Virus record (IMG/VR): IMGVR_UViG_2718218135_000001
Location: 32,001-96,000 of that record
Strand: one strand, 5' to 3'
DNA from: a virus
Taxonomy: Duplodnaviria > Heunggongvirae > Uroviricota > Caudoviricetes
Length of the DNA: 64,000 nt
The first letter of the stretch is position 1; every line of letters starts with the position of its first letter. The notes beneath the pieces are model-generated. The model was not told the DNA's origin. It made no database searches and was given only the letters and a program-made list of their open reading frames with translations. A program made the translations under genes and the position numbers. This document shows, piece after piece, positions 3,055-42,564 of the stretch.

Positions 3055-3112
3055 CTGCCTTATCTGATTTGTGAAAATGATTTCACTGAAGCAACTTAAT
3101 AAGGAAACCATC

Positions 3113-3487
3113 ATGGGACTTGATATCTATATCGAGACGCAGCCTAAAAACGATCTGAATAACGAGGCATCCAGAAAGCAGGTTGCTTACTTCCGTAAGT
3201 TCAATGCGCTCGTTGGGTGGATGGAGCGCAACGTAGGTGAAGTCGAAAATTGTGAGCTTTTAGAATTAACGATGAATGACATTTGTTTTCTGAAGGCTCA
3301 TTTGATGCACATAAACGAAAGTAATTGCGAAGAGTACTTGCCTACCCAGGAAGGTTTTTTCTTCGGCAGTCAGGAGTACGATGAAGGTTACTGGCATGAC
3401 GTGGATAAGCTGAAAAAACTTGTGGAAGACCTGATCAGGAACCACGACTTTCACAATAACAGACTGACGTTCCGTGCCTGGTGGTAA
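3113..3487 (+). CDS. hypothetical protein (124 aa)
   Basis: in-frame ATG with AAGGA RBS; the track ORF begins at GTG 3071. Confidence 0.5.
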   Translation: MGLDIYIETQPKNDLNNEASRKQVAYFRKFNALVGWMERNVGEVENCELLELTMNDICFLKAHLMHINESNCEEYLPTQEGFFFGSQEYDEGYWHDVDKLKKLVEDLIRNHDFHNNRLTFRAWW

Positions 3488-3489
3488 AT

Positions 3490-3633
3490 ATGGGCGATTT
3501 CAAGAAACGCCTGAAGGAAAGAGCCGAGATGGTCAGAAATCAAAACGCATCTTCTGTCATCAGATACGCAAGGCAGTTTAGTCGCAACAACAAATCAGTT
3601 GAGGAAAAGATCCTTAGCGCAATCGGGCGATAA
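3490..3633 (+). CDS. possible small basic protein (47 aa)
   Basis: ATG overlaps the upstream stop (TAAATATG); below the ORF-track length cutoff; hand-translated. Confidence 0.25.
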   Translation: MGDFKKRLKERAEMVRNQNASSVIRYARQFSRNNKSVEEKILSAIGR

Positions 3634-3638
3634 TTATT

Positions 3639-3662
3639 AAGGCCACCAGCAGTGGTGGCCTT
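3639..3662. terminator. 10-bp stem hairpin (terminator-like)
   Basis: aaggccacca-gcag-tggtggcctt perfect stem; no T tract. Confidence 0.35.
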
Positions 3663-3803
3663 AAATGACCATCCTGTTTCCCGCAGGCTAAAAACACCAA
3701 CCTCTTACCTCCAGGCAACCGACAAACCCACCTGTTCCCGTCCGGCTACCGCAACTTTCCACTTTGACGCCTTATTCGTACAACGATAATTAACACCAAC
3801 AAG

Positions 3804-3816
3804 AAAACAATTTGTT
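3804..3816. promoter_or_regulatory. AAACAA-N2-TTGTTT operator-like palindrome
   Basis: aaaacaatttgtt, 22 bp upstream of ATG 3838; flanking acaccaacaag element is shared with the 1260 copy. Confidence 0.5.
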
Positions 3817-3837
3817 ATTTACGATAAGGAATTAATC

Positions 3838-4320
3838 ATGAATTTTATCGCTACTGTAAACGCACCCGCACATGGCAATATCGCTGTAACGTTCTCTGAC
3901 ATTGAAAAACGAGTACTTGGTGCATGGCGCGACAATGAGACGGTAGAACTGTCAGCACAAGAAAAATGCATTATTGCACGCGACATCATTGGCAATCGTC
4001 GTTACTCGCGGGTATTTGAGAAAGCATATGTGGTAAATTCTGGATTCGGAACGTTCGTCTTTCCGGTGCGCTCCGGGCGATTCTGCCAGTCCAAGCTGAT
4101 TGAGTTCGCTACGCAGATTTCTGTCTGGATTAAAACTCAATCGTCGTTCAAATTTTCCGACGATGAAGCAGTATCGCAGGGGATGCGGATCGCCAACAAT
4201 GCAATAAAATGCAAAAACATTACGTATGCCGCTGGCGTTGACACATGGAAACTGTTTTGCGCTAACTTTATGCTGAATGTATACGCAAGCAACCGCATCC
4301 ACATCCTTGATGGCGTGTAA
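3838..4320 (+). CDS. hypothetical protein (160 aa)
   Basis: ORF with AAGGA RBS. Confidence 0.55.
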   Translation: MNFIATVNAPAHGNIAVTFSDIEKRVLGAWRDNETVELSAQEKCIIARDIIGNRRYSRVFEKAYVVNSGFGTFVFPVRSGRFCQSKLIEFATQISVWIKTQSSFKFSDDEAVSQGMRIANNAIKCKNITYAAGVDTWKLFCANFMLNVYASNRIHILDGV

Positions 4321-4328
4321 CTGAGAAG

Positions 4329-4352
4329 AGGGCCAGAAACGGCCCTTTCTCT
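4329..4352 (+). terminator. terminator-like hairpin
   Basis: agggcc-agaaac-ggccct followed by TTCTCT. Confidence 0.5.
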
Positions 4353-4368
4353 ATAGCCACCAGCTGCC

Positions 4369-4450
4369 GCAGGGAAATTTTCAGAAACGGCGAGGAACGC
4401 ATTCATGAGCCGAAGGGAAACGACCATGAAATTTTCTGGAAACGGCGGGG
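4369..4450. repeat. second cluster of iteron-like repeats
   Basis: agggaaattttcagaaacggcg and agggaaacgaccatgaaattttctggaaacggcg; same unit as at 800-1000. Confidence 0.45.
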
Positions 4451-4913
4451 GTCGCCTTTATGTAGAAAACTGAGCGGGAGAAACCCGGAATCGCGCCAGA
4501 AATTGCATAGCGGCGCTGGGTAGTTGCTGGTGGGCTTTCAGCCCCTGGGCCATCCAGATAGCTTTCGCTATGTGATTATGTGAATCCGTGGGTAAATCAC
4601 TGTAAGCGCGTACACGTTGCCCAACGTGGCAATCATATGCGAGCGGATACAAAACAACACAAAGAGCCGATCCGCGCCGACAAATAAACGCGGATCACAT
4701 AGCAAGACTAAAAGCCAATGATTAACCATACTCTATAGCGCAATATAACGCGTTTTAAGCGCGTTAATGTGTTAAGTAATGGGTATGTACTGACAAGGAT
4801 ATAAAAGCGCGTCTATGGCGTTATTTTGGTGCTTATTTTTATGTTGTTGGAGTGAGTTAAAGACAATAAAAAACGCGCCATCATTGGCGCGTTATGGTGG
4901 GAGTATTGGAAAC

Positions 4914-4950
4914 GAAAAAAGCGCCCATAGTGGGCGCTCGATTTTATTTG
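4914..4950. terminator. bidirectional intrinsic terminator
   Basis: A-run, palindrome gcgcccatagtgggcgc, then T-rich tract; identical palindrome recurs at 5194-5212. Confidence 0.55.
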
Positions 4951-5174
4951 TGTAAACTGATTTCAAATCCTATTTCTACAAACGCTTTCAACATTAAAAA
5001 GATATCAGCGTCATTCACGTCTGCTTTTTTTCGCTCCTGGTCGTTCAATAAGTCAATTTTGCGCGTTGTTTCATTTATAAACTCGACTGCGCGCCCAGCG
5101 ATCCCAGCGATCCCAGCGATGCGATTAACATAATATTCATTATGGACGTTAACGCCAGCGATAAGAACAAACAT
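4944..5174 (-). CDS. small protein (76 aa) with IAG x3 repeat
   Basis: AAGGAG RBS; contains the 9-bp tandem repeat. Confidence 0.5.
   Translation of the reverse strand: MFVLIAGVNVHNEYYVNRIAGIAGIAGRAVEFINETTRKIDLLNDQERKKADVNDADIFLMLKAFVEIGFEISLHK
5094..5120. repeat. 9-bp tandem repeat x3 (cccagcgat)
   Basis: direct reading; encodes IAGIAGIAG on the minus strand. Confidence 0.8.
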
Positions 5175-5192
5175 GATTAAGCTCCTTAAAAC

Positions 5193-5213
5193 TAGCGCCC
5201 ATAGTGGGCGCTA
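5193..5213. terminator. palindrome identical to the 4921 copy (terminator-like)
   Basis: tagcgcccatagtgggcgcta, between two minus-strand genes. Confidence 0.4.
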
Positions 5214-5224
5214 TATCCATCTAA

Positions 5225-5875
5225 TTACGCTTTGAAAGCATCAGCCAGATAGTTATAAAAATCATTTTTAACGAAGCGATATTGCTGTGATCCGTTTTTC
5301 GCTGCACCCATTCCTTTGATTTTTTCGACCAGTCCCAGACGTTCGCAAAGATTGATAAGCTGGTTGGCTTGAGTGTATCCAGCGTCTAATTTTATTTCGT
5401 TGGCTTTTTTCGCTTCATTCATTAAATCGAAAACAGCGCCATTAGTGAACGTCTCGATCTCGTCGTTAATCATATCGATTAGAGCGAATACGCGAGATCC
5501 GGACATATCAGCGACGGAATAAACGCATTTACCAGACTTAATGGATTTAACCAGATAAACCAATTTTTCCAGTGAATAACTATTAGTCATTGCTTCGCGG
5601 AAAAATGCTTCAGGTGCTTGTTTGCTTGCTTTAATCGCGTAGTAAAACACGCCAGCTAATTTTTCATCATTAACAGCGTTTAAAACGTTGTTCGTGAAAT
5701 AAGCTAATTTAGTAGACGCTGCAAGCATGTTAGCTTTATCCGCTTTTGTGTGTGTACCATTTTTATAATGATTGTTATAAGTCTGGGTAGCGTTGTTGGC
5801 TGCAACTTGTAACTCATTAGCGATAACCACAGCAGCGTCGATGATAGCTTTTTTAGAAATGGTAACGTTAGACAT
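5225..5875 (-). CDS. hypothetical protein (216 aa), AT-rich island
   Basis: ORF with AAGGA RBS; no recognisable motif. Confidence 0.55.
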   Translation of the reverse strand: MSNVTISKKAIIDAAVVIANELQVAANNATQTYNNHYKNGTHTKADKANMLAASTKLAYFTNNVLNAVNDEKLAGVFYYAIKASKQAPEAFFREAMTNSYSLEKLVYLVKSIKSGKCVYSVADMSGSRVFALIDMINDEIETFTNGAVFDLMNEAKKANEIKLDAGYTQANQLINLCERLGLVEKIKGMGAAKNGSQQYRFVKNDFYNYLADAFKA

Positions 5876-6189
5876 GATGTTAATCCTTAATAAGAGTAAA
5901 AATAAAATTCTTGTATCGTTAGCGTGTTCGCTTTCGATGTGAGTAATTATCGATATGCAGAAATTAAAATCAAGAGTTTTTTACGCGGGAGCGAAAAAAT
6001 TTTTATTCAATAAAAATCAAAGTCTTAGAAATAAAACGCGTTTTCTCGAAGGTGTTGCCTAAATAAATTCCCTATTCGGTCAATCACCCTTATATATTTA
6101 AAGTGAAATCGGGATTAGGGAAAATAAATATAACGGGAAGTGACACATAAAATAATAACCGGACTTAGCCGGTTATCACCCTTATAGAT

Positions 6190-6714
6190 TTAAAACGGTA
6201 AAATCCGTTCGACCCAATCGAAGAGAACTATCGTTCGTCCGCGCTCGCCAACTCTCATTGCGACCTGACAGGCATCAACGCCTAACGAACACCCCTCAAT
6301 TTCACGGCCATCCGCCATGTAGACCCTTATAGACTTTTGCGCCTCATGAGCTTGACGACAAATTTTGAAGAAATCGCGGCGAGATGGCCGATTGTCCACA
6401 TAGTCAGGGTGTACAGTGAGCCTACCTGTAAACATCTTGTCCACTTCGACAGGTGTAATTGTTTCTATGGTGCTAACTCGCTCCAATGGAAGACGAACAC
6501 GATGTTCTTTACTTCCTATAACGGGAGAAAGATCTAGCTTATTGCGTGCGGTAAGCAGACCAATAACGTAAAGACAAAACGTCTGACCATCATCGATCGT
6601 GACCCTTACAGGTATATTCCTTGCCCGTAGGAACTGCAAACTAAACTCCACGTTAGAGTAGTCGCGGGGCCAGACCTCTGCTGGGATGCCGTATGTAATG
6701 TCTGTGATCGTCAT
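6190..6714 (-). CDS. hypothetical protein (174 aa), translationally coupled to upstream gene
   Basis: start overlaps upstream stop (TAATG). Confidence 0.55.
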   Translation of the reverse strand: MTITDITYGIPAEVWPRDYSNVEFSLQFLRARNIPVRVTIDDGQTFCLYVIGLLTARNKLDLSPVIGSKEHRVRLPLERVSTIETITPVEVDKMFTGRLTVHPDYVDNRPSRRDFFKICRQAHEAQKSIRVYMADGREIEGCSLGVDACQVAMRVGERGRTIVLFDWVERILPF

Positions 6715-7304
6715 TAGTCTACCTTAAGTGGCGTGTCGAGAAGCCCAAACTTAAACTGCTTGCTACCTGCCACGAGGAAGGGGGCTTCGATGTAAATGGT
6801 TTTGTTGTCGATATCTGATTTTGCGGTCTTTTTGATGTCTTTTAGAAGCCTAATTGTTGCTGCGTTGTCCAGAACAAGTACTTTGCCGGTCGCATCATTG
6901 CCGATTTTGCCGTATGTCGTGAACGATTCATTACTGCCAACGCGGATATTAATCGGGCAACCGCTCTTGGCGATCTCATCACAGTACATAGTTCCATCAA
7001 TCACATTTAGTAGACCGTAGGTTGGAACAAGAGCCTTGCCAGAGTTGGTGCTTGTTCCTTCTTTGACAGCTGTACCCATGATTTGAAGGCGCATATGTTC
7101 TGATTCACCGGAAATCAGTGTTTCTTCCGCGTTATCGGAATACCTGAACCATACAGGTTGAACTGTTCCTCTGGCCTCGTATTTTACATTGTCTAGGGTA
7201 GTGAACTTGCTGTACGTTTTTTGCATGTCAGCAACCATATCTGACACTGCATTGGCAGAGAATGATAGAATATAGGTGGTTACTAAGATGGCTAAACGAG
7301 TCAT
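6714..7304 (-). CDS. hypothetical secreted protein (196 aa)
   Basis: N-terminal signal peptide MTRLAILVTTYILSFSANA; GAGGT RBS. Confidence 0.55.
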   Translation of the reverse strand: MTRLAILVTTYILSFSANAVSDMVADMQKTYSKFTTLDNVKYEARGTVQPVWFRYSDNAEETLISGESEHMRLQIMGTAVKEGTSTNSGKALVPTYGLLNVIDGTMYCDEIAKSGCPINIRVGSNESFTTYGKIGNDATGKVLVLDNAATIRLLKDIKKTAKSDIDNKTIYIEAPFLVAGSKQFKFGLLDTPLKVD

Positions 7305-38614: not shown

Positions 38615-39195
38615 TGGCATTCAGAATGAGTGAACAACCACGGACCATAAAAATTTATAATCTGCTGTCCGGAACTAATGAATTTATTGGTGAAGGTGAT
38701 GCATATATTCCGCCTCATACAGGTCTGCCAGCAAACAGTACCGATATTGCACCGCCAGATATTCCGGCAGGCTTCGTGGCTGTTTTCAACAGTGATGAGG
38801 CATCGTGGCATCTCGTTGAAGATCATCGGGGAAAAACCGTCTATGACGTGGCTTCCGGCGACGCGTTATTTATTTCTGAACTCGGTCCGTTACCGGAAAA
38901 TGTTACCTGGTTATCACCGGATGGGGAATATCAGAAGTGGGACGGCACATCCTGGGAGAAGGATGAGGAAACAGAAAAATTGTTTCAGGTACGGGAAGCG
39001 GAAGAAACAAAAAAAAGTCTGATGCAGGTAGCCAGCGAGCACATTGCGCCACTTCAGGATGCTGTAGATTTGGAGATTGCAACGGAGGAAGAAGCATCGT
39101 TGCTGACTGCATGGAAGAAGTATAGAGTTTTATTGAACCGCATTGACACATCAACGGCACCGGATATTGACTGGCCAACAATACCAGCAGAGTAA
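38614..39195 (+). CDS. tail fibre assembly protein (Tfa-like)
   Basis: 193 aa directly after fibre gene, TAATG overlap. Confidence 0.75.
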
Positions 39196-41863: not shown

Positions 41864-41898
41864 CATACGACAATAATTCACGCAAAGGAAACTCACCA

Positions 41899-42564
41899 AT
41901 GACCAAGATCATTGTGGTTGGCGGCACAAAAGGCGGCCCAGGCAAATCTACCGTTGCCCAGCAAATTGCGGTATGTCTCAAAGTTAAAAAGAAAAAGAAG
42001 GTTCACGTCACCGATATCGATATCCAGCGCACCACGACCAGCTGGTGTGAAGACCGTCGCCAGAACGAAGATCTTGAACTGATCCCGTTCGCTTATGTGC
42101 AGGACGACATCGTCAAACATCTTAAATCGCTTCAGGGGCGAACTGATTATGTAGTGGTAGATGCTGGTGGCTTTGACTCCGAAATTCAGCGTCTGGCGAT
42201 GCTTATGGCTGATGTAATCATCATCCCGCTGCGCCCTAAACGTCGTGATTTGAAATCTCTGCGTGATATCGACCCGATTATCGACAACGTTCGCAATGTG
42301 AACGAGAAAGTTAAGATCCGCGCGGTAATAAACCAGTGTCCGTCATTGCCTTCCCAGGTATCACGTATTCTGGCCGCGAAGGAAATTGTCGAAACTTTCG
42401 GCATCGAGGCTGCGCCGGTCAATCTGTACAACCGTAACGTTTATGACGATGCGGAAGAGGCAGGTCGTTCTATCTTTGAAATGACTGGCGCTGAACGCGA
42501 TAAGAAGGCAGAAGCCGAGTTCGAAGAGTTTGTAGATTACATCTTGAGTCTGGAGGAAGAATAA
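41899..42564 (+). CDS. parA: ParA-family partition ATPase (small, type Ib-like)
   Basis: deviant Walker A GGTKGGPGKST; 221 aa. Confidence 0.85.
   Translation: MTKIIVVGGTKGGPGKSTVAQQIAVCLKVKKKKKVHVTDIDIQRTTTSWCEDRRQNEDLELIPFAYVQDDIVKHLKSLQGRTDYVVVDAGGFDSEIQRLAMLMADVIIIPLRPKRRDLKSLRDIDPIIDNVRNVNEKVKIRAVINQCPSLPSQVSRILAAKEIVETFGIEAAPVNLYNRNVYDDAEEAGRSIFEMTGAERDKKAEAEFEEFVDYILSLEEE

What the first reader, a model, noticed from the sequence alone, without database searches (positions are those of the whole stretch)
4873..5213. Small repeat-containing gene bracketed by two identical 19-bp palindromes
agcgcccatagtgggcgct occurs at 4920-4938 and 5194-5212 on either side of the 76-aa gene carrying the 9-bp triplicated repeat; a third similar palindrome is at 4873-4892. 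The layout is either paired bidirectional terminators or the footprint of a small inserted cassette.
Basis: seen in the sequence. Interest (0 to 1): 0.35.

Follow-up and report, generated by a model that had tools for sequence, protein, structure and literature searches.

The report
Hairpin-bounded gene cassette slot in phage-plasmid
The two identical palindromes are copies of one transcription-terminator hairpin that marks the borders of a small slot in SSU5-type phage-plasmids where short accessory genes are gained, lost, duplicated or swapped; it is real and tidy, but it varies a known theme in phage genome shuffling.

Summary
AGCGCCCATAGTGGGCGCT occurs exactly twice in the window (4920-4938, 5194-5212; 0 expected by chance), bracketing a 76-aa minus-strand ORF with a perfect 9-bp x3 repeat. 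A different GC-rich palindrome lies at 4872-4893. The window is an SSU5/pHCM2-type phage-plasmid. In 84 of 84 relatives found through the neighbouring 216-aa protein, not through the hairpin, the same stem follows that gene's stop codon, one of them with a single stem mismatch. Between it and the last hairpin copy, relatives carry nothing (a single hairpin), one gene of two unrelated families (F0, 75-76 aa, or F1, 67 aa), or two genes. One empty/occupied pair has the same sequence immediately on either side (one substitution in the ~60 nt compared) and differs by one 247-bp [RBS-gene-hairpin] unit. The last copy has a T-run of about 6 after the stem and is followed by a backup terminator. Internal copies have 1-4 T running into the next Shine-Dalgarno. 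Best reading: promoterless cassettes in a two-gene operon are delimited by one repeated terminator hairpin, leaky inside and strong at the end. That hairpin also supplies the short direct repeat for cassette turnover. The logic matches PeSL shuffling in T4-type phages, but without the promoter. Gene functions are unknown. I rate it a new variant of a known kind, of modest interest.

The parts
5225..5875 (-). g216: conserved 216-aa gene (phrog_1513, unknown function, C-terminal winged-helix fold). It is the first gene of the operon and the fixed anchor of the cassette slot.
   Evidence: ORF. PHROG hit 2.5e-143. AF2 model pLDDT 87, with only generic winged-helix matches in the PDB. In 84 of 84 relatives it is followed within 13-24 nt by hairpin H, one of them with a single stem mismatch.
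5946..5973 (-). Promoter-like site (TTGATT-16-GATAAT) upstream of g216. It is the candidate operon promoter, on weak evidence.
   Evidence: Consensus scan. Promoter-like sites in the region are fewer than in shuffles, so this is a candidate only.
5194..5212 (-). Internal copy of hairpin H, 13 nt after the g216 stop and 7 nt before the Shine-Dalgarno of the cassette gene. The U-tract is truncated (AGUUUUAAGGAG). Predicted to be a leaky terminator or mRNA 3'-end stabiliser, and it forms the upstream cassette border.
   Evidence: -18.1 kcal/mol on the minus strand. Not called a terminator. Internal copies in 75 distinct relatives have a mean T-run of 2.1.
5182..5187 (-). Shine-Dalgarno AAGGAG of the cassette gene. 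The H-to-ATG distance of 19 nt leaves no room for a promoter, and the leader is shared by F0a and F0c cassettes in relatives.
   Evidence: Sequence; junction listing.
4944..5174 (-). Cassette gene F0a: a 76-aa orphan protein (phrog_1585, unknown function).
   Evidence: 79 clusters, all named ones from Enterobacteriaceae apart from small partial contigs. 17 representatives in 1.8 billion proteins. Absent, replaced or doubled in relatives.
5094..5120 (-). 9-bp x3 in-frame tandem repeat encoding IAGIAGIAG. Copy number is polymorphic (1-4) among relatives.
   Evidence: Proteins P0037 (1 copy), P0020 (2), window (3) and P0014 (4).
4920..4938 (-). Terminal copy of hairpin H followed by U5-6. It is the first intrinsic terminator of the operon and the downstream cassette border.
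   Evidence: minus-strand terminator GAGCGCCCACTATGGGCGCTT TTTTCGTTTC, also scored on the + strand.. Terminal copies in relatives have a mean T-run of 5.7.
4872..4893 (-). T2: second, different GC-rich hairpin plus T-run. It is a backup intrinsic terminator in tandem, and in a divergent lineage this position is occupied by another copy of H.

Best explanation
The locus is a small, promoterless cassette slot at the 3' end of a minus-strand operon of an SSU5-type phage-plasmid: promoter, then g216, then H, then [RBS-small gene-H] repeated n times, then T2. H is one conserved intrinsic-terminator stem-loop used repeatedly. Shown: the last copy has a full T-run and is backed by a second terminator. 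Every internal copy keeps the stem, but its T-run is cut to 1-4 T that run straight into the next gene's Shine-Dalgarno. Inferred: internal copies act as leaky terminators or 3'-end stabilisers, so g216 is expressed more than the cassette gene(s), while the terminal pair stops transcription before the convergent 160-aa gene. Shown at the DNA level: the repeated H is the border at which units are present, absent, duplicated or exchanged among otherwise similar phage-plasmids. Inferred: the identical 19-bp copies, with up to about 38 bp once the shared T/SD leader is included, serve as short direct repeats. Recombination or replication slippage between them deletes or duplicates units. Exchange between co-resident phage-plasmids replaces units. 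This is the logic proposed for PeSL elements in T4-type phages. The functions of the cassette proteins (F0 in the window, F1 in SSU5) are unknown; they behave like dispensable accessory ('moron'-type) genes.
For: Context: SSU5/pHCM2-type phage-plasmid. In 75 distinct loci ascertained through g216, terminal H copies have a T-run of mean 5.7 (n=81) and internal copies a mean of 2.1 (n=64), followed by AAGGAG. H follows g216 in 84 of 84 relatives, one with a single stem mismatch, including lineages where g216 is only 50-64% identical. Architectures found are H alone, H-F1-H, H-F0-H, H-F0c-H-F0a-H, H-F1-F0-H and H-F1-H-H. For the indel, L111 and L100 (empty) have the same sequence as L110 (F1) immediately on either side, with one substitution in the ~60 nt compared, and differ by one 247-bp [RBS-F1-H] unit. 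Over 600 nt per side, however, the closest occupied partner found for those empty loci is only 95% and 92% identical. L156 and L168 have flanks 97-98% identical and differ by the F1 unit. L155 and L164 differ by F0c replacing F1. F0a and F0c are 42%-identical paralogues with the same H-SD leader, consistent with an old tandem duplication of the unit. Gene-free 44-47 bp [H+spacer] units occur in 1-3 tandem copies in divergent lineages, so the unit changes copy number on its own. There is no promoter-like site between H and the start codon, which are 19 nt apart. The PeSL precedent, two motifs around an ORFan and one motif at the empty site, is in PMC2839356.
Against: There are no transcript data, so partial termination at internal H is inferred from sequence only. 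The region is mosaic in general, with breakpoints also inside g216 and further downstream. Ordinary homologous recombination in the flanks could therefore move cassettes without any role for H. In the F1-F0 doublets there is no H between the genes, only a T7 run. In the F0c/F1 replacement the homology runs past H into the SD, so exchanges are not confined to H. 19 bp is short for RecA-dependent recombination, and no recombination product such as a mini-circle has been observed. The stem is invariant with almost no compensatory change (one A-T to G-C at the outermost pair), so covariation support for an RNA structure is absent. The invariance itself is not explained by a generic terminator role.
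Confidence: 0.65

Rival explanations
1. The hairpins are only terminators and insulators. Each small gene simply carries or needs a terminator. Cassette differences among relatives arise by ordinary homologous recombination in the long conserved flanks (g216, g160), and the hairpin plays no part in the rearrangements.
For: There is general mosaicism, with breakpoints inside g216 and between the downstream segments. F0 and the 220 nt downstream of the terminal H are usually co-inherited. The F1-F0 doublets lack a middle hairpin. The same 19-mer also serves as a terminator in unrelated Vibrio phages.
Against: The empty/occupied pair differs by one [RBS-gene-H] unit with H as the direct repeat, and the sequence immediately on either side is the same. 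Gene-free [H+spacer] units vary from 1 to 3 tandem copies. L022, L032 and L065 have F0 at 89-93% identity to the window but only 76% identity immediately downstream of the terminal H. This reading does not explain why the very same 19-mer, rather than any good terminator, is kept at every border across lineages whose proteins have diverged to 30-50% identity.
Confidence: 0.2
2. H is a sequence-specific recognition site, either for a recombinase (an integron/attC-like miniature cassette system) or for a DNA- or RNA-binding protein of the element, for instance the adjacent winged-helix protein g216 acting on a palindromic operator or iterated site.
For: The stem sequence is invariant, with free and even inverted loops, across lineages where the flanking proteins are 30-64% identical. 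g216 and H are strictly linked. g216 has a confidently modelled winged-helix domain, and many of its invariant residues lie in that C-terminal part. Divergent lineages carry tandem H arrays at 44-bp spacing. The cassettes are promoterless and each ends in a hairpin, as in integron arrays.
Against: No integrase, HUH or other recombinase family matched the six neighbouring ORFs spanning 3071-7304. H is a 19-bp perfect palindrome without the extrahelical bases and R/L boxes of attC. Exchange junctions are not confined to H. The position right after stop codons and the strict T-run at terminal copies are what a plain terminator needs. The fold matches for g216 are weak (best E 0.016). The flanking 19-mer also occurs in unrelated Vibrio phages.
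Confidence: 0.08
3. The segment is the footprint of a transposable element (a MITE- or IS-like insertion) whose terminal repeats are the palindromes.
For: There are identical repeats at both ends of a 274-bp segment, with presence/absence polymorphism.
Against: There is no transposase and no target-site duplication beyond H itself. The element is found at a single locus per genome and always in the same orientation. Distant homologues of the F0 gene sit in other phages without H. The repeats are followed by T-runs and sit exactly at gene ends.
Confidence: 0.02

Closest known systems
PeSL (promoter-early stem-loop) regulatory cassettes of T4-type phages (Arbiol et al. 2010, PMC2839356; Comeau et al. 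2014, PMC4122927)
   Same: A conserved repeated intergenic motif containing a terminator stem-loop, with the SD and start of the next gene at its 3' end, flanks small ORFan genes. The occupied state has two motifs and the empty state has one. The motif serves as both regulatory signal and recombination substrate.
   Different: PeSLs are about 100 bp and contain a strong sigma-70 early promoter, and about 50 copies are scattered through hyperplastic regions. H is 19 bp plus a T-run with no promoter. It is confined to one locus with 1-3 copies per genome, and the cassettes depend on the upstream g216 promoter. Mini-circles have been shown for PeSLs and not here.
Phage 'morons' (accessory genes flanked by their own promoter and terminator, lambdoid phages; from my own knowledge: Juhala et al. 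2000, Hendrix et al. 2000)
   Same: Small dispensable genes of unknown function lie between conserved genes, are bounded by a factor-independent terminator, and are variably present among close relatives.
   Different: Classical morons carry their own promoter and are autonomous transcription units. These cassettes are promoterless and are read through a leaky hairpin. The same hairpin sequence is reused on both sides.
Integron gene cassettes with attC sites
   Same: An array of promoterless ORFs, each followed by a hairpin-forming repeat and expressed from one upstream promoter. Cassette number and identity vary.
   Different: attC sites are 57-141 bp imperfect palindromes with extrahelical bases, recombined as folded single strands by IntI. 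Here the palindrome is a perfect 19 bp, no integrase matched the neighbouring ORFs, and junctions are not strictly at the hairpin.
Intercistronic REP/BIME-type stabiliser hairpins and leaky intrinsic terminators inside operons (e.g. malE-malF; from my own knowledge)
   Same: A GC-rich hairpin between cistrons is expected to protect the upstream mRNA from 3' exonucleases and lower expression of the distal gene.
   Different: REPs are chromosomal families with hundreds of imperfect copies. H is a plasmid and phage element restricted to one locus. No Rfam family matched at gathering threshold.
Hairpin 'minute inversions' of loops in non-coding DNA (Kelchner & Wendel 1996, as cited in PMC9653739)
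   Same: Exact reverse-complement flips of the loop occur between intact palindromic arms. This is seen for H (ACTAT/ATAGT, 17 of 145 copies) and for T2 (ATTGTT/AACAAT, AATGAT/ATCATT).
   Different: The phenomenon was described for plastid spacers. Here it is in phage-plasmid terminators, where it is a by-product of DNA-level hairpin formation or template switching rather than a function.

Membership tests
Intrinsic (Rho-independent) terminator | GC-rich stem-loop that is stable relative to shuffled sequence | tested here: met
   -14.3 to -18.1 kcal/mol, z -3.5 to -4.4 for both H copies and T2.
Intrinsic (Rho-independent) terminator | U-tract immediately 3' of the stem on the transcribed strand | tested here: met
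   Met for the terminal H (4920-4938; TTTTTCG) and for T2. NOT met for the internal H at 5194-5212 (AGTTTTAAGG; not called). Internal copies have a mean T-run of 2.1 against 5.7 for terminal copies.
Intrinsic (Rho-independent) terminator | Located just downstream of a stop codon, in the orientation of the gene | tested here: met
   H lies 13-24 nt after the g216 stop in 84 of 84 relatives, one with a single stem mismatch, and 5-6 nt after the cassette gene stop.
Intrinsic (Rho-independent) terminator | Transcript 3' ends map to the U-tract in vivo or in vitro | not testable with these tools
   No transcript data are available.
PeSL modular-shuffling cassette (T4-type phages) | Contains a sigma-70 early promoter (-35/-10 with an AT-rich upstream region) | tested here: not met
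   Only 19 nt separate H from the ATG. No promoter-like site was found there or in the 3' end of g216.
PeSL modular-shuffling cassette (T4-type phages) | Stem-loop acting as terminator or attenuator, with the SD and start codon of the next gene at the 3' end of the motif | tested here: met
   H is followed by a short T-run, then AAGGAG, then ATG at every internal copy. Function is inferred, not measured.
PeSL modular-shuffling cassette (T4-type phages) | Flanks variable ORFans: two motifs when occupied, one at the empty site | tested here: met
   L111 and L100 (single H) compared with L110 (H-F1-H), with the same sequence immediately on either side.
PeSL modular-shuffling cassette (T4-type phages) | Many dispersed copies in hyperplastic regions of the genome | tested here: not met
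   Only this locus in the 64-kb window and one locus per contig in IMG/VR.
PeSL modular-shuffling cassette (T4-type phages) | Circular excision products (mini-circles) | not testable with these tools
   This needs PCR or long reads on a lysogen or lysate.
Integron cassette array | attC: imperfect 57-141 bp palindrome with R''/L''-L'/R' boxes and extrahelical bases | tested here: not met
   H is a perfect 8+3+8 palindrome of 19 bp.
Integron cassette array | Adjacent intI tyrosine recombinase and attI | tested here: not met
   The neighbouring ORFs spanning 3071-7304 give no recombinase family (Pfam, PHROGs). The rest of the window was not scanned for integrases.
Integron cassette array | Promoterless ORFs expressed from one upstream promoter | tested here: inconclusive
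   Absence of a promoter between H and the ATG is shown. Read-through expression is inferred only.
REP/BIME extragenic palindromes | High-copy chromosomal family with a REP consensus; RAYT association | tested here: not met
   Of 242 matching places in E. coli complete genomes, 0 are on chromosomes. There are 2 copies in the window and no Rfam match.
MITE/IS footprint | Terminal inverted repeats with target-site duplication; multiple insertion sites | tested here: not met
   A single locus in a fixed orientation across about 170 loci. F0 homologues elsewhere lack H.

The most novel reading that the evidence does not exclude
H is more than a terminator. It is a sequence-specific site, invariant in stem sequence while the flanking proteins drift to 30-50% identity, that a phage-plasmid protein recognises as DNA or RNA. 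The always-adjacent winged-helix protein g216 or a phage recombinase are candidates. On this reading the locus would be a miniature integron-like, promoterless cassette-capture system native to SSU5-type phage-plasmids.
Probability: 0.08. Interest if true: 0.65.

Novelty: new variant of a known kind. Interest (0 to 1): 0.3.

Why it matters
SSU5/pHCM2-type phage-plasmids are widespread in Escherichia, Klebsiella, Salmonella, Enterobacter and Yersinia: 784 PLSDB plasmids match this locus. They are studied as carriers of accessory and resistance genes. This locus is a compact natural example of how such elements turn over small accessory genes. One 19-bp terminator hairpin serves as expression signal, graded inside the array and strong at the end, and also as the repeat at which units are added, lost or swapped. 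The model predicts a simple, testable operon architecture. It also marks a permissive insertion site, and it flags two orphan protein families (F0, F1) as dispensable accessory genes worth testing for host-interaction or anti-defence phenotypes. It extends the PeSL idea, regulatory repeats as shuffling substrates, from lytic T4-type phages to temperate phage-plasmids in a minimal, promoterless form.

Tried and rejected
1. Chance: rejected, with 0 matches in shuffles.

2. Known RNA family: only sub-threshold Rfam hits, Hrs1 at 32 bits against a 56.4 gathering score, and nothing at this locus at gathering threshold.

3. Function of the 76-aa protein:
- Pfam gave only a sub-threshold hit (FN-plug_TEN1-4, 14.2 bits against a 27.8 cut-off) and PADLOC gave nothing.
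- PHROGs gave only an unknown-function family.
- The AF2 model is unusable (pLDDT 40), so no fold search was made.
- An exhaustive HMMER search found only 17 representative clusters.

4. Does H travel with the F0 gene? Distant F0 homologues (L183-L185) sit in other phage contexts with different hairpins, so it does not.

5. Is H a mobile signature found in other phages? Only two off-locus contigs carry it. Both are Vibrio-phage contexts where it is again a gene-end hairpin, and I take this as convergence.

6. g216 as a recognisable recombinase or partition protein: the fold search gave only generic winged-helix matches, best E 0.016. The afdb50 library was unavailable.

7. Covariation support for the hairpin: the stem is essentially invariant, with one compensatory change at the outermost pair, so no covariation test was informative and none was run.

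8. Clean recombination breakpoints at H from segment-wise identity: the region is too mosaic for a simple answer. Only specific pairs are informative.

9. The genome-contig scan returned only 5 loci, and the viral-contig scan supplied the hairpin-independent sample.

10. The SSU5 phage-plasmid survey I checked does not mention hairpins, terminators or hotspots.

Full report
OBSERVATION. The 19-mer AGCGCCCATAGTGGGCGCT is present exactly at 4920-4938 and 5194-5212 and nowhere else in the 64-kb window, even with three mismatches. Dinucleotide-preserving shuffles gave no match, and a looser GCGCCC-N5-GGGCGC pattern finds the same two sites only. Each copy folds into an 8-9 bp GC-rich stem with a 3-nt loop, at -14 to -18 kcal/mol and z about -3.5 to -4.4. 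Between them lies a 76-aa ORF on the minus strand (4944..5174) that contains a perfect 9-bp x3 tandem repeat (5094-5120) encoding IAGIAGIAG. The 'third palindrome' is real (4872-4893, AACGCGCC-loop-GGCGCGTT) but is a different sequence.

CONTEXT. The region matches 240 E. coli plasmids (0 chromosomal places), 784 PLSDB plasmids (Klebsiella, Escherichia, Enterobacter, Yersinia, Salmonella and others) and phage SSU5 and its relatives. The window is therefore an SSU5/pHCM2-type phage-plasmid. All features belong to one minus-strand unit. It runs from a promoter-like site at 5973-5946 (weak evidence) through a conserved 216-aa gene (g216; 5225-5875; phrog_1513, unknown function) to hairpin H, a Shine-Dalgarno, the 76-aa gene, H again and the second hairpin T2. 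The next gene is a convergent 160-aa ORF (3838-4320, + strand). Upstream on the same strand is an FljA-like gene (Pfam Flag1_repress, 6e-69).

WHAT THE HAIRPINS ARE. On the minus strand the copy at 4939-4919 and T2 at 4893-4872 are canonical intrinsic terminators, each a stem followed by TTTTTCG or TTTTTTA, and they sit in tandem. The copy at 5194-5212 lies 13 nt after the g216 stop and 7 nt before the AAGGAG of the small gene. Its tail is AGTTTTAAGGAG and the scan did not call it a terminator. This difference is systematic. I took 75 distinct loci retrieved through the g216 protein, independently of the hairpin. In them, terminal H copies have a T-run of mean 5.7 (n=81, mostly 6) and internal copies a mean of 2.1 (n=64, range 1-4) that runs into the next SD. 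I therefore read H as one terminator module that is strong at the end of the array and weakened inside it, where it would act as a leaky terminator or 3'-end stabiliser. The anatomy is shown; the termination behaviour is inferred.

COMPARATIVE EVIDENCE FOR A CASSETTE SLOT. A scan of IMG/VR for the exact 19-mer gave 93 stretches. Virtually all lie between homologues of g216 and the 160-aa gene, even where those proteins are only 50-64% and about 31-33% identical to the window's. In the hairpin-independent sample all 84 evaluable loci have the stem 13-24 nt after the g216 stop, one with a single stem mismatch.

Read in the direction of transcription, the architectures are:
- H alone, with no gene.
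- H-F1-H, as in SSU5 itself. F1 is 67 aa and is mis-annotated as a CorA/MIT transporter.
- H-F0-H, as in the window.
- H-F0c-H-F0a-H.
- H-F1-F0-H, with no middle hairpin.
- H-F1-H-H, in a divergent lineage where the backup terminator is itself H.

F0 and F1 are unrelated families. F0a and F0c are 42%-identical paralogues that share the same H-TTAAGGAGCTTAATC-ATG leader, which suggests an old tandem duplication of the unit.

The cleanest case is an empty/occupied pair. L111 and L100 (empty) and L110 (F1) have the same sequence immediately on either side ('...gcgtaattagatggatat H tttttcgtttcaagatccg...', with one substitution in the ~60 nt compared). They differ by exactly one 247-bp [SD-F1-H] unit. 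Over 600 nt per side the closest occupied partner found for those empty loci is only 95% and 92% identical. Pairs with 97-98% identical 600-nt flanks differ by presence of F1 (L156 and L168) or by F0c replacing F1 (L155 and L164). Among loci whose g216 is at least 96% identical to the window's, four states occur: empty, F1, F0a and F0c. In the most divergent lineage there are no genes, but 1-3 tandem 44-bp [H+spacer] units.

MECHANISM OF TURNOVER (INFERRED). Identical H copies are short direct repeats, with up to about 38 bp of shared sequence when the T-run and SD leader are included. Recombination or replication slippage between them would delete a unit (H-gene-H to H), duplicate it, or change the number of gene-free units. 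Exchange between co-resident phage-plasmids would replace units. This is the logic proposed, and partly demonstrated through mini-circles, for PeSL elements of T4-type phages, where an ORFan flanked by two PeSLs corresponds to a single PeSL in the relative lacking it (PMC2839356).

There are several caveats:
- The whole region is mosaic, with breakpoints also inside g216 and downstream.
- F1-F0 doublets lack the middle H.
- In the F0c/F1 replacement the homology extends beyond H into the SD.

H is therefore a preferred border, not an obligatory crossover point. This argues against a strict site-specific system.

DNA-LEVEL BEHAVIOUR OF THE PALINDROME. The stem is invariant, apart from one A-T to G-C change at the outermost pair in L144 and L149. 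The loop varies: ACTAT in 115 of 145 copies, its exact reverse complement ATAGT in 17 of 145, and nine other variants together in 13 of 145. T2 loops also occur as reverse-complement pairs. Exact flips need three simultaneous substitutions, yet they are more frequent than any single-step variant. They are therefore inversions of the loop between the palindromic arms, a phenomenon known from plastid hairpins (Kelchner & Wendel 1996, cited in PMC9653739). Because the stem does not vary, covariation cannot be used as evidence for RNA structure. The extreme sequence conservation of H, compared with T2 and with the flanking genes, is the one feature that the terminator model does not explain. Homogenisation among copies or recognition by a protein are possible reasons. 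g216 has a confidently modelled C-terminal winged helix (pLDDT 87) and is always adjacent to H, but fold matches are generic (best E 0.016) and nothing links it to H directly.

THE GENE. F0 is an orphan family. It has 79 clusters, and all those with an organism name come from Enterobacteriaceae apart from small partial contigs. Only 17 representative clusters appear among 1.8 billion proteins. It belongs to an unknown-function PHROG. Pfam gave only a sub-threshold hit and PADLOC gave nothing, and the AF2 model is not usable (pLDDT 40). Distant homologues keep an IAG-xAG-Y core and lie in other phage contexts without H. The 9-bp repeat is an in-frame copy-number polymorphism with 1, 2, 3 or 4 IAG units (P0037, P0020, window, P0014). 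Its function is unknown, and its dispensability (empty sites, a frameshifted allele) marks it as an accessory gene.

COMPARISON AND VERDICT. The locus works like a PeSL or moron system but fails the PeSL membership test on the defining promoter and on genome-wide dispersion. It resembles an integron array in being promoterless with a hairpin after each ORF, but it fails on attC structure and on an adjacent integrase. It is not a REP, MITE or IS element. I classify it as a new variant of a known kind: a minimal, promoterless, terminator-hairpin-delimited cassette slot in temperate phage-plasmids. The cassette interpretation is supported, and the 'paired bidirectional terminators' interpretation holds only for the distal copy. 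Interest is modest at 0.3. The most novel reading not excluded is that H is a sequence-specific recognition or recombination site, and I put that at about 8%.

Noticed in passing
window 5094-5120 (and proteins P0037, P0020, P0014): The 9-bp repeat is an in-frame copy-number polymorphism. Relatives encode 1, 2, 3 or 4 IAG units (70, 73, 76 and 79 aa). Distant homologues keep an IAG-xAG-Y core, so the perfect triplication is a recent expansion of an old motif.
   Followed up: yes
window 5025-5031 (T7 on + strand, A7 in the gene); L078, L156: There is a homopolymer tract inside the 76-aa gene. Relatives L078 and L156 have A6 instead of A7, which truncates the protein to 52 aa. This is either a pseudogenised cassette or a slippage-prone switch.
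   Followed up: partly
window 4872-4893 and the T2 position in L098-L182: The second terminator also shows exact loop flips among relatives (ATTGTT 19 vs AACAAT 8; AATGAT 7 vs ATCATT 7). In a divergent lineage (L029, L073, L094, L178-L181) this position is occupied by another copy of H.
   Followed up: partly
L023 8080-8142, L053 1497-1603, L010, L025: In the lineage with g216 at about 50% identity there is no cassette gene. Instead there are 1-3 tandem 44-bp [H + spacer] units plus variant hairpins (AGCGCCACTATGGGCGCT, AGCGCCATTTCTGGCGCT), forming an array of up to four consecutive terminators.
   Followed up: partly
window 5225-5875 (-): g216 (phrog_1513, no Pfam) gives a confident AF2 model: a long N-terminal helical hairpin plus a C-terminal winged helix. 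Many of its invariant residues lie in that C-terminal part. Function is unknown, and it is always immediately followed by H.
   Followed up: partly
window 6190-6714 (-): A 174-aa gene is a full-length match to Pfam Flag1_repress (FljA, repressor of phase-1 flagellin; 6e-69), so a flagellin-regulation homologue is carried by the phage-plasmid. In SSU5 it is annotated similarly.
   Followed up: no
L003 1628-1831 (SSU5_119) / phrog_6145: The 67-aa F1 cassette protein is annotated 'MIT family metal ion transporter CorA' in SSU5 and in PHROGs. A 67-aa protein with no Pfam CorA match (its only Pfam hit is a sub-threshold DUF6899) cannot be a CorA channel, so this is a propagated mis-annotation.
   Followed up: partly
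window 4865-4931 (+) and 4746-4766: There is a sub-threshold Rfam hit to Hrs1 sRNA on the + strand across T2 and H (32 bits against a gathering score of 56.4). The terminal H also scores as a + strand terminator. The 550-bp non-coding stretch between T2 and the 160-aa gene holds further conserved palindromes, such as TAACGCGTTTTAAGCGCGTTA at 4746-4766. A small + strand RNA or an operator region is possible.
   Followed up: no
L006 12915-12933, L092 1472-1490: The identical 19-mer occurs at a gene end in contigs related to Vibrio cyclitrophicus phages. These are unrelated to SSU5, so this is probably convergence on a good terminator stem.
   Followed up: partly
L098 (JAEWTL010000044.1): A contig labelled 'MAG: Bacillota bacterium' carries a g216 100% identical to the window's, with the same H-F0-H layout. 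It is almost certainly a mis-binned enterobacterial phage-plasmid contig.
   Followed up: no
window 38957-39155 (+); 41887-41967 (-); 59235-59309 (+): There is an Rfam IS009 RNA family match above gathering score (189.6 bits). There are also two tRNA genes, tRNA-Lys(ttt) and tRNA-Asn(gtt), elsewhere in the window.
   Followed up: no
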